Source: Oligosphaeraceae bacterium
GTDB lineage: Bacteria; Verrucomicrobiota; Lentisphaeria; Oligosphaerales; Oligosphaeraceae
DNA: 64,000 bases
NCBI GenBank assembly: GCA_051884615.1
Contig: JBJEVT010000041.1
Location: 125,898 to 189,897, forward strand
Direction of reading: 5' to 3'
How positions within the stretch are numbered: position 1 is the first letter of the stretch; every line of letters begins with the position of its first letter. Positions 35,638-50,960 of the stretch are shown here, in pieces. The translations under genes and the position numbers were made by a program. The notes below the pieces were generated by a model that saw nothing but the letters and a program-made list of their open reading frames with translations, was not told the origin of the DNA and searched no databases.

Positions 35638-35696
35638 AGCCCTCCCCCTGGGCGGTTGCGTTTTTCTCCCAGGGAACTAAATTATGCGCCACGCAC

Positions 35697-35786
35697 GGAG
35701 AGATGCCGGAGTGGCCGAACGGGGCGGTCTCGAAAACCGCTAGCCTGGCAACAGGCTCGGGGGTTCAAATCCCTCTCTCTCCGCCA
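35697..35786 (+). tRNA. tRNA-Ser (anticodon CGA), class II with long variable arm, CCA encoded
   Basis: Manual fold: acceptor GGAGAGA/TCTCTCC, D stem CCG/CGG, anticodon stem GCGGT/ACCGC with loop CTCGAAA, variable stem AGCCTG/CAGGCT, T arm GGGGG-TTCAAAT-CCCTC, discriminator G, then CCA. Confidence 0.93.
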
Positions 35787-38778: not shown

Positions 38779-38815
38779 CCGCCGCCCCTTTGCTGCAAGG
38801 GACGGCGGTTTTTAT
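38779..38815 (+). terminator. Rho-independent terminator between convergent genes
   Basis: Stem ccgccgcccctt / aagggacggcgg (one mismatch) with loop tgctgc, followed by tttttattt. An aaaa run precedes the stem, so it could act in both directions. Confidence 0.7.
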
Positions 38816-38846
38816 TTATAACTCGTTGATTACAAACAAGTTATAA
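38816..38846. repeat. 31-nt AT-rich palindromic intergenic motif, copy 1 (TTATAACTCGTTGATTACAAACAAGTTATAA)
   Basis: Read directly. The arms TTATAAC/GTTATAA are reverse complements. 27/31 positions are identical to copy 2 at 50930. Confidence 0.9.
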
Positions 38847-42970: not shown

Positions 42971-43158
42971 GAATCGTCTGGGGTTGGGAAAAAGACACGC
43001 TGGAAAATACGGGGCGCCCCCCGCCAAGGAACGGCGGGAACCGACGCAGGACAAGGAGGAATATAAGGGGCAATCCCCGAACCGACCCCCATGGACGAGG
43101 GAAAGGAACACCTCTGCCCCCCATCCCCCCCCAAAAACAACCGGTGTATTTTTGACAT

Positions 43159-43189
43159 TCATAACCCATTGAAAAAAAAAAACTTATGA
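43159..43189. repeat. 31-nt AT-rich palindromic intergenic motif, copy 3 (TCATAACCCATTGAAAAAAAAAAACTTATGA)
   Basis: It has the same length and layout as copies 1 and 2, with 22/31 identity to copy 1. The arm change T->C at position 2 is mirrored by A->G at position 30. Confidence 0.7.
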
Positions 43190-50929: not shown

Positions 50930-50960
50930 TTATAACTCGTTGAATATAAAGATGTTATAA
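50930..50960. repeat. 31-nt AT-rich palindromic intergenic motif, copy 2 (TTATAACTCGTTGAATATAAAGATGTTATAA)
   Basis: Read directly. It lies 18 nt after the methyltransferase stop and 20 nt before the transpeptidase ATG. The flanks extend the palindrome (ATTGTTATAAC ... GTTATAACAAACAAT). Confidence 0.9.

What the first reader, a model, noticed from the sequence alone, without database searches (positions are those of the whole stretch)
38816..38846. 31-nt AT-rich palindromic motif present three times in intergenic DNA of a G+C-rich genome
Copy 1 (38816-38846) is TTATAACTCGTTGATTACAAACAAGTTATAA. Copy 2 (50930-50960) is TTATAACTCGTTGAATATAAAGATGTTATAA, 27/31 identical. Copy 3 (43159-43189) is TCATAACCCATTGAAAAAAAAAAACTTATGA, 22/31 identical. 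All three have the same length, 7-nt inverted arms, a conserved TTGA and an A-rich centre. Their contexts differ: between convergent genes just after a terminator, 20 nt upstream of the PBP gene, and in a divergent promoter region. Read on the opposite strand, each contains an A/T tract followed by a close match to the E. coli IHF core WATCAANNNNTTR (AATCAAcgagTTA in copy 1). An IHF/HU-type architectural site is therefore one hypothesis. Others are a dimeric regulator operator or a REP-like element.
Basis: partly seen in the sequence, partly recalled or inferred. Interest (0 to 1): 0.6.

Follow-up and report, generated by a model that had tools for sequence, protein, structure and literature searches.

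The report
Palindromic IHF-like DNA-binding site family
Three conserved 31-base AT-rich palindromes between genes of a G+C-rich gut bacterium look like mirror-symmetric versions of the site bound by the DNA-bending protein IHF, which hints at an unstudied DNA-bending protein in this and other phyla.

Summary
Three 31-nt copies sit at 38816, 43159 and 50930 (0.02 expected by chance), and the repeat unit is exactly 31 nt.

All three copies are kept at orthologous positions in a related species (MAG302, PBP 89% identical), and copy 2 also in a second one. Arms and 17-nt spacing are conserved in copies 1 and 2 while the inner bases drift; copy 3's orthologue has an 18-nt spacer.

Related copies give the consensus TTATAAC-N3-TTGAT-W-ATCAA-N3-GTTATAA. 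Read outward from its centre on either strand, this is WATCAA-N4-TTR, the E. coli IHF consensus in its published register. The TT and AA steps lie 9 bp apart, the spacing of the two IHF kinks.

The same palindrome is enriched in Bacteroidota, Planctomycetota/Omnitrophota, Acidobacteria and 33 phage contigs. Mirrored variable positions do not covary, so a hairpin is unlikely. No canonical sigma-70 promoter, Rfam family, target-site duplication or REP tag was found.

Best reading (about 0.45): a symmetric architectural site for a homodimeric HU/IHF-family protein. Rivals are another dimeric regulator's operator, a REP-like repeat, or promoter elements.

The parts
38816..38846 (.). Copy 1: TTATAACTCGTTGATTACAAACAAGTTATAA. 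It lies between the bidirectional terminator and the DUF362 stop codon, in a convergent gene gap.
   Evidence: The orthologue in MAG302 is L123:14131-14161, CTATAACTTGTTGATAATCAATAGGTTATAA, in the same position.
38819..38831 (-). Perfect IHF-type core AATCAACGAGTTA (WATCAA-N4-TTR) of copy 1. The W is the central base of the palindrome.
   Evidence: Read directly. The register follows PMC2709558 and PMC1874591.
50930..50960 (.). Copy 2: TTATAACTCGTTGAATATAAAGATGTTATAA. It lies 17 nt after the SpoU stop and 20 nt before the PBP2 ATG.
   Evidence: Orthologues are L114:9947 and L116:2073, with arms 14/14 and the 17-nt spacer kept while the inner part is about half changed.
50933..50945 (-). IHF-type core of copy 2, ATTCAACGAGTTA (one mismatch: A to T at the second base).
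43159..43189 (.). Copy 3, a divergent member: TCATAACCCATTGAAAAAAAAAAACTTATGA. It lies in the divergent GH20/TM2 spacer and has an 11-A tract in one half.
   Evidence: The orthologue at about L114:1753-1784 is GCATAACCCTTTGAAAAAATATATACTTATGA with an 18-nt spacer. It is among the best-conserved blocks of the 300-nt spacer.
43162..43174 (-). IHF-type core of copy 3, TTTCAATGGGTTA (one mismatch), preceded on that strand by a T-tract (an A-tract on the other strand).
   Evidence: The A-tract is the fourth IHF consensus element according to PMC1874591.
38779..38814 (.). G+C-rich hairpin with flanking A and T runs, a bidirectional intrinsic terminator directly abutting copy 1.
   Evidence: terminator-like site 38790-38808 followed by TTTTTATTTA. 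It is conserved in MAG302.

Best explanation
The three copies belong to a family of 31-bp palindromic double-stranded-DNA sites bound by a sequence-specific, two-fold symmetric protein. The most likely binder is a homodimer of the HU/IHF family with IHF-like specificity.

Proposed mechanism (inferred, not shown):
1. The dimer sits on the central W.
2. Its two beta-arms kink the DNA at the TT (positions 11/12) and AA (20/21) steps, 9 bp apart, inside TTGAT-W-ATCAA.
3. The AT-rich, flexible arms (TTATAAC / GTTATAA, which contain the TTR element four bases beyond the core) wrap against the body of the protein and give a sharp bend.

Such bends at gene boundaries would shape local promoter geometry (copy 2 before PBP2, copy 3 in a divergent promoter region). 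Next to a terminator between convergent genes (copy 1) they would act as an architectural or topological barrier.

Shown: the motif, its symmetry, its register relative to the IHF consensus, its orthologous conservation, its spread to other phyla and phages, and the lack of hairpin covariation.
Inferred: the identity of the protein and what the bend does.
For: 1. The motif is non-random and discrete: 3 sites against 0.02 expected, with a unit of exactly 31 nt.

2. In about 200 kb from the window and relatives, TTATAA hexamers pair only at 25-nt spacing (6 of 6 pairs). Arm pairs occur only with a 17-nt spacer when spacers 15-19 are tried.

3. All three copies are kept at orthologous positions in MAG302 (GCA_016302315.1), and copy 2 also in GCA_016303095.1. 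For copy 2 the arms are 14/14 identical while the inner 17 nt are about half identical and the flanks hold indels.

4. The symmetrised consensus of nine Victivallales copies is TTATAACTTATTGATAATCAATAAGTTATAA. A weight matrix built from them finds 15 sites of 14 bits or more, against 0.16 in locally shuffled DNA.

5. That consensus equals YAA-N4-TTGAT-W-ATCAA-N4-TTR. The literature states that WATCAA starts at the centre of the IHF site, that TTR lies 4 bp further 3', that two AA steps 9 bp apart take the intercalating prolines, that an A-tract can fill the other half, and that the site spans 34 bp (PMC1874591). [quoted passage not shown]

6. In 22-24 distinct phage copies found with only TTGA/TCAA and the arms fixed, the free positions are T15 (23/24), W16 (24/24) and A17 (22/24). 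The full WATCAA therefore emerges unforced.

7. Mirrored variable positions show no excess of Watson-Crick complementarity: 9/23 gives 5 observed against 5.6 expected, and 10/22 gives 5 against 9.9. Fold energies of the window copies are only -6.8, -3.6 and -0.5 kcal/mol.

8. The asymmetric inner half points opposite ways relative to transcription in copies 1 and 2, as expected for a symmetric DNA site.

9. The hits are enriched in Bacteroidota, Acidobacteria and Planctomycetota/Omnitrophota. In Bacteroidota and Acidobacteria a single IHF-like subunit without a partner has been reported, with unknown specificity (bioRxiv 10.1101/2024.06.24.600358).
Against: - The strongest conservation is in the outer TTATAA+C arms, which extend beyond the IHF consensus. 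Within the window, the ATCAA half is perfect only in copy 1.
- IHF subunits are reported for Proteobacteria, Acidobacteria and (alpha-like) Bacteroidetes, not for Lentisphaerota. Ordinary HU has little sequence specificity.
- No HU/IHF gene lies in the 1.37 Mb of DNA I hold. The window's genome could not be searched.
- The match to IHF was found after comparing the motif with many known consensus sequences. I estimate roughly 1 in 100 after allowing for that; this is a rough figure of mine, not a tool result.
- Classical IHF sites are asymmetric.
- A MarR-type operator (FabT of streptococci) contains the same TTGATTATCAA core (string hits; the FabT consensus is from memory).
Confidence: 0.45

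Rival explanations
1. Operator of another two-fold symmetric regulator, either a dimer with widely spaced DNA-reading heads or a pair of dimers. It would read four blocks (TTATAAC, TTGAT, ATCAA, GTTATAA) and control the flanking genes. It would work like the BirA or NikR operators (7-9-nt arms with a 13-16-nt AT-rich spacer), QacR-type pairs of dimers, or a MarR-type dimer on TTGAT-W-ATCAA.
For: - The conserved arms with fixed spacing and a drifting spacer are the classic signature of such operators.
- Published operator architectures are comparable: BirA TTGTAAACC-N14/15-GGTTTACAA and NikR GTATGAT-N13/14-ATCATAC, with the half-sites sometimes in opposite orientation (PMC545781).
- A variant in a more distant relative reads TTGTAAC-N17-GTTACAA (L012:5195).
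- In other phyla the sites lie mostly in tandem or divergent gaps: 19 tandem, 12 divergent, 1 convergent.
Against: - The flanking genes share no theme. In the window and relatives they are PBP2, TM2/rpsU, GH20, GH2, DUF362, GH38-Maf, a histidine phosphatase and a hybrid kinase. In Microscillaceae they are a thiolase, aconitase, peptidase, AcrB, galactokinase and others.
- At least four sites in the Victivallales group lie between convergent genes next to terminators, where an operator has nothing to control.
- One copy spans a 24-nt gap from the stop codon to the start codon.
- The half-sites and target genes do not match BirA or NikR.
Confidence: 0.25
2. A REP- or MITE-like selfish palindromic repeat that spread through intergenic DNA, possibly via a single-stranded hairpin. 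The window copies would be old, decaying insertions.
For: - The element is multi-copy, strictly intergenic and often sits just past terminators.
- One Microscillaceae MAG holds at least 19 strict copies, some inside longer shared repeats.
- The site is absent from the SpoU|PBP spacer of relatives whose PBP is 65% identical.
- Copies 1 and 2 share 13/17 inner bases, more than the orthologues of copy 2 share with it.
- Earlier notes of this scan describe tiny hairpin elements across similar phyla and a TTATAAC/GTTATAA repeat past terminators in another genome. These are leads only.
Against: - No consistent target-site duplication appears in the flanks (and my own reading of the flanks).
- There is no GTAG or CGTC tag, and the stems are weak and AT-rich.
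- Mirrored positions do not covary.
- All three window copies are orthologous in a different species and the arms look to be under purifying selection.
- The strict pattern occurs only once each in the two related Lentisphaeria genomes held in the collection.
Confidence: 0.12
3. Promoter elements. Each arm (G)TTATAA(T) would be a -10 or extended -10 box (TGnTATAAT) firing outward, so the palindrome would be a compact bidirectional or internal promoter.
For: - Right arm plus the next base reads TATAAT (copy 1, L116, L119a), TATAAC (copy 2) or TATAAA (L114, L061). Four copies have TG at the extended -10 position.
- Five copies lie 15-35 nt before a start codon.
Against: - There is no -35 box at 16-18 nt, and the consensus scan finds no promoter at any copy. 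The tRNA promoter in the same window has a canonical layout, TTGCGT-N17-TAAATT.
- Copy 1 and its orthologue face only a terminator and the 3' end of a gene.
- In L119a the box overlaps the start codon.
- Conservation of the arm that points away from the gene is left unexplained.
Confidence: 0.1
4. Chance similarity of AT-rich spacers, or an RNA hairpin element.
For: AT-rich intergenic DNA is low in complexity. Copy 1 folds with z = -4.4.
Against: Shuffles give 0.02 sites. The sites are conserved at orthologous positions. No Rfam family matches. Copies 2 and 3 barely fold. Orientation relative to transcription is not fixed.
Confidence: 0.03

Closest known systems
E. coli IHF binding sites (for example lambda H', ttgctTATCAAtttgTTG)
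   Same: The WATCAA core starts at the site centre, TTR lies 4 bp further on, and two AA/TT steps lie 9 bp apart. The other half is AT-rich or an A-tract, and the extent is about 31-34 bp (searches compared).
   Different: Here the consensus is present on both halves (a palindrome), whereas classical sites are asymmetric, matching the alpha/beta heterodimer. The outer arms (TTATAA plus C) are conserved far more strongly than in IHF sites. The organism is a Lentisphaerota member, for which no IHF is documented.
RIP/RIB (BIME-1) elements of E. coli: repeated IHF sites flanked by REPs at 3' ends of transcription units (from memory: Boccard and Prentki 1993; Oppenheim et al. 1993)
   Same: These are multi-copy intergenic IHF-type sites that often follow terminators. 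Copy 1, L114:19233 and L122:4795 all abut terminator hairpins.
   Different: No flanking G+C-rich REP hairpins with GTAG/CGTC tags. The unit is only 31 bp, and many copies lie just upstream of start codons.
Sites of homodimeric HU/IHF-family proteins such as Borrelia Hbb, and the unpartnered IHF-alpha-like (Bacteroidetes) and IHF-beta (Acidobacteria) proteins
   Same: A homodimer should prefer a two-fold symmetric site. The palindrome is most frequent in exactly the phyla said to have an unpartnered IHF-like subunit.
   Different: No binding data exist for these proteins; the preprint itself says their specificity is 'to be tested'. The link is my inference.
BirA and NikR operators (TTGTAAACC-N14/15-GGTTTACAA; GTATGAT-N13/14-ATCATAC)
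   Same: Long palindromes with 7-9-nt arms and a 13-17-nt AT-rich spacer, about 28-33 bp in all.
   Different: The arm sequences differ, those regulators have one or two sites per genome upstream of biotin or nickel genes, and none of the genes here belongs to those regulons.
REP elements with RAYT transposases
   Same: Short (20-40 bp) palindromic, multi-copy, extragenic sequences.
   Different: No GTAG/CGTC tag, AT-rich weak stems, no covariation, and old orthologous copies (PMC3733652 is listed).

Membership tests
IHF-type binding site | WATCAR core whose first base is the centre of the site | tested here: met
   The central base 16 is W in all three copies. On the minus strand copy 1 is perfect (AATCAA), and copies 2 and 3 have one mismatch each (ATTCAA, TTTCAA). 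The family consensus is TTGAT-W-ATCAA. The register is from PMC2709558.
IHF-type binding site | TTR element four base pairs 3' of the core | tested here: met
   All three copies read N4 then TTA (CGAG-TTA, CGAG-TTA, TGGG-TTA). The definition is from PMC1874591.
IHF-type binding site | Two AA/TT steps 9 bp apart in the middle (proline intercalation sites) | tested here: met
   T11T12 and A20A21 are present in copies 1, 2 and 3 and in the consensus.
IHF-type binding site | AT-rich 5' half, sometimes an A-tract of 4-6 | tested here: met
   The opposite half is AT-rich in all copies. Copy 3 has an 11-bp A·T tract.
IHF-type binding site | Consensus confined to one half (asymmetric site of a heterodimer) | tested here: not met
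   The family is palindromic and both halves carry the consensus. I therefore file it as a symmetric variant, not a classical IHF site.
IHF-type binding site | An IHF/HU-family protein is encoded in the genome and binds the site | not testable with these tools
No such gene lies in the 1.37 Mb of loci held.
REP / RAYT repeats | Conserved GTAG or CGTC tag at one end of the palindrome | tested here: not met
   The ends are TTATAAC / GTTATAA and no tag appears in the flanks.
REP / RAYT repeats | Stable stem-loop with compensatory changes | tested here: not met
   Fold energies are -6.8, -3.6 and -0.5 kcal/mol. Mirrored variable positions show no excess complementarity.
REP / RAYT repeats | High copy number and a RAYT gene in the genome | not testable with these tools
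MITE | Terminal inverted repeats flanked by a target-site duplication, with presence/absence polymorphism | tested here: not met
   There is no consistent duplication in the flanks. The copies are orthologous between species.
Sigma-70 promoter | -35 and -10 hexamers 16-18 nt apart | tested here: not met
   The consensus scan finds none at any copy. TTGA to TATAA spacing is 10 nt.
BirA / NikR operators | Family half-site sequence and location upstream of biotin or nickel genes | tested here: not met
   The half-sites differ, and the neighbouring genes are unrelated.
Known structured RNA (Rfam) | Match to a covariance model at gathering score | tested here: not met
   Only tRNAs and one group II intron were found in the window and 10 loci. 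Nothing matched at the motif.

The most novel reading that the evidence does not exclude
The palindrome TYATAAC-N3-TTGAT-W-ATCAA-N3-GTTATRA is the cognate site of homodimeric IHF-like proteins in Bacteroidota, Acidobacteria and the Planctomycetota-Lentisphaerota group, and their phages exploit it. Sequence-specific, IHF-style recognition would then exist in a symmetric form outside the proteobacterial alpha/beta heterodimer. The classical asymmetric IHF site would be a half-degenerate derivative of this form.
Probability: 0.3. Interest if true: 0.75.

Novelty: new variant of a known kind. Interest (0 to 1): 0.55.

Why it matters
A 2025 preprint on HU/IHF evolution leaves two questions open: whether the unpartnered IHF-like subunits of Bacteroidetes and Acidobacteria form homodimers, and whether they read DNA sequence. 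A conserved, perfectly mirrored IHF consensus, enriched in those phyla, in Planctomycetota/Omnitrophota and in phages, gives a concrete predicted target. It can be tested with a gel shift and a bending assay.

For the window's organism, an uncultured gut Victivallales relative, it marks three gene boundaries that appear to be under purifying selection for a DNA-level function: before PBP2, in the GH20/TM2-rpsU control region, and behind the DUF362 gene.

If the binder turns out not to be HU/IHF, the family is still an undescribed, widely spread 31-bp protein-binding palindrome.

Tried and rejected
- **Whole-genome scan of the window's genome.** The one genome-contig scan did not return the window's own genome. 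Copy number is therefore unknown; rough bounds are about 10 to 200.
- **Rfam.** Nothing matched at the motif.
- **Canonical promoter.** None was predicted at any copy.
- **RNA evidence.** DNA runs hold only 5-10% of the sampled words. The one metatranscriptome (X12) holds only 90-95%-identical pieces of a relative's DUF1846 gene, and nothing near copy 3.
- **Literature search by sequence string.** No description of the palindrome was found. The only hits were an IHF site string in a Dickeya paper and TTGATTATCAA in streptococcal FabT papers.
- **Known operators compared from memory and rejected.** FNR/CRP (spacing N4, not N1), the Fur/PerR/Zur 7-1-7 layout, Zur GTTATA..TATAAC (arms everted here), ArgR, NrdR, CIRCE, LexA variants, parS, dif/lox/rox and hix recombination sites (many dispersed, orthologously conserved copies do not fit a recombination site), MerR-type 19-20-bp spacer promoters, and the T4 late TATAAATA box.
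- **TTATAA arms as a 6-bp target-site duplication.** Rejected, because copy 3 changes the arms as an inverted pair (TCATAA / TTATGA), not as a direct one.
- **HU/IHF genes in all held loci.** tblastn and a small HMM found none.
- **Regulon logic.** The neighbouring genes share no theme.

Full report
**Observation.** TYATAAC-N17-GTTATRA with up to two mismatches finds only these three sites in the 64-kb window, against 0.02 expected from dinucleotide shuffles. The repeat finder returns a three-member family of exactly 31 nt (87% and 71% identity to copy 1) with unrelated flanks, so the copies are not fragments of longer duplications. The window is 64.6% G+C, and the three copies are the longest of its AT-rich islands.

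**Gene context.**
- Copy 1 (38816) lies between the convergent GH2 and DUF362/ferredoxin genes. It directly follows a G+C-rich hairpin with a T-run and ends 2 nt from the DUF362 stop codon.
- Copy 2 (50930) lies in the 68-nt gap between a SpoU-type methyltransferase gene and a PBP2-type gene, 20 nt before the ATG.
- Copy 3 (43159) lies in the 305-nt divergent gap between a GH20 gene and a TM2-domain gene that heads an rpsU-DUF1846-SNF2 row.

Protein matches place the organism among uncultured Victivallales/Lentisphaeria of animal guts.

**Limits.** The single scan of the species-genome collection did not return the window's own genome. Genome-wide copy number, and the presence of any candidate binding protein in this genome, therefore could not be determined.

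**Conservation.** I fetched relatives through exact-protein look-ups.
- In MAG302 (GCA_016302315.1; PBP 89% identical, same gene order) all three sites are present at the orthologous positions:
  - Copy 1 corresponds to CTATAACTTGTTGATAATCAATAGGTTATAA, between the DUF362 stop and the same bidirectional terminator.
  - Copy 2 corresponds to TTATAACTTACTGATATTCAAGTAGTTATAA, 23 nt before the PBP ATG.
  - Copy 3 corresponds to GCATAACCCTTTGAAAAAATATATACTTATGA, one base longer.
- A second genome (GCA_016303095.1, PBP 87% identical) has TTATAACATGTTTGTATTCAATATGTTATAA before PBP.

In the copy 2 series the 14 arm bases and the 17-nt spacer are invariant. About half of the inner bases differ, and the flanks hold substitutions and indels. 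Relatives whose PBP is 65% identical have a 27-nt SpoU|PBP gap with no site.

Across about 200 kb of window plus relatives:
- Arm pairs occur only with a 17-nt spacer when spacers 15-19 are allowed.
- TTATAA hexamers pair only at 25 nt (6 of 6 pairs).
- A weight matrix from nine copies finds 15 sites scoring at least 14 bits, against 0.16 in locally shuffled DNA.

Further copies:
- Before a GH38-Maf gene (L061/L121).
- At three successive gene junctions around a histidine-phosphatase gene and a hybrid-kinase gene in Tb.RUG.64. One of these spans a 24-nt gap from the stop codon to the start codon.
- Next to terminator hairpins in convergent gaps (L114:19233, L122:4795).

**Anatomy.** The symmetrised consensus of the Victivallales copies is TTATAAC-TTA-TTGAT-A-ATCAA-TAA-GTTATAA. 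It has four conserved blocks: positions 1-7, 11-15, 17-21 and 25-31. These are separated by variable 3-nt linkers around a central W.

**What it is not.**
- No Rfam family matches.
- No sigma-70-type promoter with 16-18-nt spacing is predicted at any copy, although a tRNA promoter in the same window has a canonical layout, TTGCGT-N17-TAAATT.
- As single strands the window copies fold weakly: -6.8, -3.6 and -0.5 kcal/mol.
- In 22 distinct phage copies, the mirrored variable positions (2/30, 8/24, 9/23, 10/22) show no excess of complementary pairs over shuffled expectation. At 10/22 there are fewer, 5 against 9.9. The same holds for positions 2/30 in the bacterial hits.
- The flanks carry no consistent target-site duplication and no GTAG/CGTC tag.
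- The asymmetric inner half points opposite ways relative to transcription in copies 1 and 2.

Together these results argue for recognition of double-stranded DNA by a two-fold symmetric protein. They argue against a hairpin, a mobile repeat or a promoter.

**Match to IHF.** Read outward from the central base on either strand, the consensus is W-ATCAA-N4-TTA. The published description of E. coli IHF sites has these elements (PMC1874591):
- WATCAA starting near the centre.
- TTR four base pairs further 3'.
- Two AA steps nine base pairs apart, where the prolines intercalate.
- Sometimes an A-tract in the other half.
- About 34 bp in all.

PMC2709558 states that the centre of the site is the first base of the consensus, and it prints lambda H' as ttgctTATCAAtttgTTG. 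In H' the bases left of the centre (ttgct) are already a near mirror of ATCAA.

In the present family the centre is W. The TT (11/12) and AA (20/21) steps are nine base pairs apart, and TTA follows four bases beyond the core on both sides. It is therefore the fully mirrored form of the IHF site, in register.

In the window, read on the minus strand:
- Copy 1 has a perfect core, AATCAACGAGTTA.
- Copies 2 and 3 have one mismatch each.
- Copy 3 carries an 11-bp A·T tract in the other half.

My rough estimate, not a tool result, is that an arbitrary AT-rich palindrome would fit these nine positions in fixed register about 2 times in 10,000. Allowing for the several dozen known motifs I compared, that is about 1 in 100.

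**Spread.** The strict pattern TYATAACYCRTTGA-N10-STTATRA found 66 stretches among 185,579 species genomes:
- At least 19 copies are in one Microscillaceae MAG, with the consensus TCATAACTCATTGAT-W-ATCAA...GTTATRA.
- About 15 are in other Bacteroidota.
- About 16 are in Planctomycetota, Omnitrophota and Lentisphaeria.
- Two are in an acidobacterial MAG.
- About ten are in loci with at least 54% G+C, where my composition-based estimate expects fewer than one.

The doubly palindromic pattern TYATAAC-N3-TTGA-N3-TCAA-N3-GTTATRA found 33 phage contigs of 28-38% G+C. My composition-based estimate expects fewer than one. The sites lie in gaps among DNA-metabolism genes, often with partial copies alongside at a 25-bp period.

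In these phage hits the positions that the pattern left free are T15 (23/24), W16 (24/24) and A17 (22/24). The complete WATCAA therefore emerges unforced.

Neighbouring genes share no functional theme in any group. Outside the Victivallales group the sites lie in tandem (19) and divergent (12) gaps and only once in a convergent gap. In the Victivallales group at least four of about a dozen sites are in convergent gaps beside terminators.

**Interpretation.** The best-supported reading is a symmetric architectural site for a homodimeric HU/IHF-family protein that kinks and wraps the DNA. The shown and inferred steps are separated in the explanation section.

A 2025 preprint reports IHF-beta without a partner in Acidobacteria and an IHF-alpha-like protein without IHF-beta in Bacteroidetes. 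It says that their dimer state and sequence specificity are untested. The phyla richest in this palindrome overlap with those.

Three points weigh against the reading for this window:
- The outer arms are conserved well beyond the IHF consensus.
- No IHF is documented for Lentisphaerota.
- I could not look for the gene.

I put this reading at about 0.45. The rivals are another symmetric regulator (BirA-, NikR-, QacR- or MarR-like architecture) at 0.25, a REP-like repeat at 0.12, outward-facing extended -10 promoter elements at 0.10, and chance or an RNA element at about 0.03. I leave the small remainder unassigned.

**Novelty.** I found no description of this palindrome in the searchable literature. 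I class it as a new variant of a known kind: an IHF-type site in a symmetric form, in phyla where such recognition has not been shown.

Noticed in passing
L114:18950-19230 (MAG302, between the UvrD-like gene and a GH20b gene): A G+C-rich segment of about 45 nt (…CCCCGTCCTGCGGGGTGACAGGATCGCTAGACGGGGGTG…) occurs twice about 160 nt apart, just upstream of a degenerate motif copy and a terminator hairpin. It may be a separate intergenic repeat family.
   Followed up: no
L119:9157-12123 (Lentisphaeria MAG Tb.RUG.64): Three motif copies sit at three successive junctions of co-directional genes (AXE1 | His_Phos_1 | hybrid histidine kinase | ORF). The first supplies the last sense codon and the TAA stop of one gene, and its last base is the A of the next gene's ATG.
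   Followed up: partly
L017, L042, L044 and 15 other loci of Microscillaceae MAG Prado074: This Bacteroidota MAG holds at least 19 strict copies. Some share a further 40 nt or so downstream (…AAGATTTWAGTTAATTRCTTGATTTTCAATTAC), and some have a second partial copy about 25 nt away. In that genome the palindrome is part of larger composite repeats.
   Followed up: partly
L131, L132, L135, L137, L138, L145, L149, L156, L158 and other IMG/VR loci: In phage contigs the palindrome is often flanked on one side by a conserved G-rich box (AAATGGGGTATTTTGGG or CCCTAAAATAGTTG) and by partial copies that share arms (GTTATAAC alternating with TTGATWATCAA at a 25-bp period). This looks like a phage regulatory or origin-like array.
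   Followed up: partly
L071:3995-4039 and L079:251-295 (Pirellulales MAG); window 43147-43174: Copy 3 and two planctomycete sites share an upstream extension, ATTTTTGAC(A/T)T…TCATAACYCATTGA. A -35-like TTGAC box sits 1-3 nt before the left arm, which suggests a promoter-linked subclass of the motif.
   Followed up: no
L023:688-760 and L069:4396-4440 (gammaproteobacterial MAGs): A pattern hit (TTATAACCCATTGATATTGTTATGGTTATAA) is followed by a sequence ending in a tRNA-like T-arm (GGTGGTTCGAT). The Rfam tRNA model did not call it in L023. It may be a tmRNA or tRNA-like gene, or a chance hit.
   Followed up: no
L007:1-4475 (relative with 87% identical DUF1846): A type V-B CRISPR locus (a C2c1/Cas12b RuvC-like 1354-aa protein next to a Cas4-Cas1 fusion) lies about 5.5 kb upstream of the rpsU-DUF1846-SNF2 row. 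It is absent from the window.
   Followed up: no
window 35655-35696: The tRNA gene at 35697 is preceded by a canonical TTGCGT-N17-TAAATT promoter-like pair. This organism therefore seems to use ordinary sigma-70 spacing.
   Followed up: no
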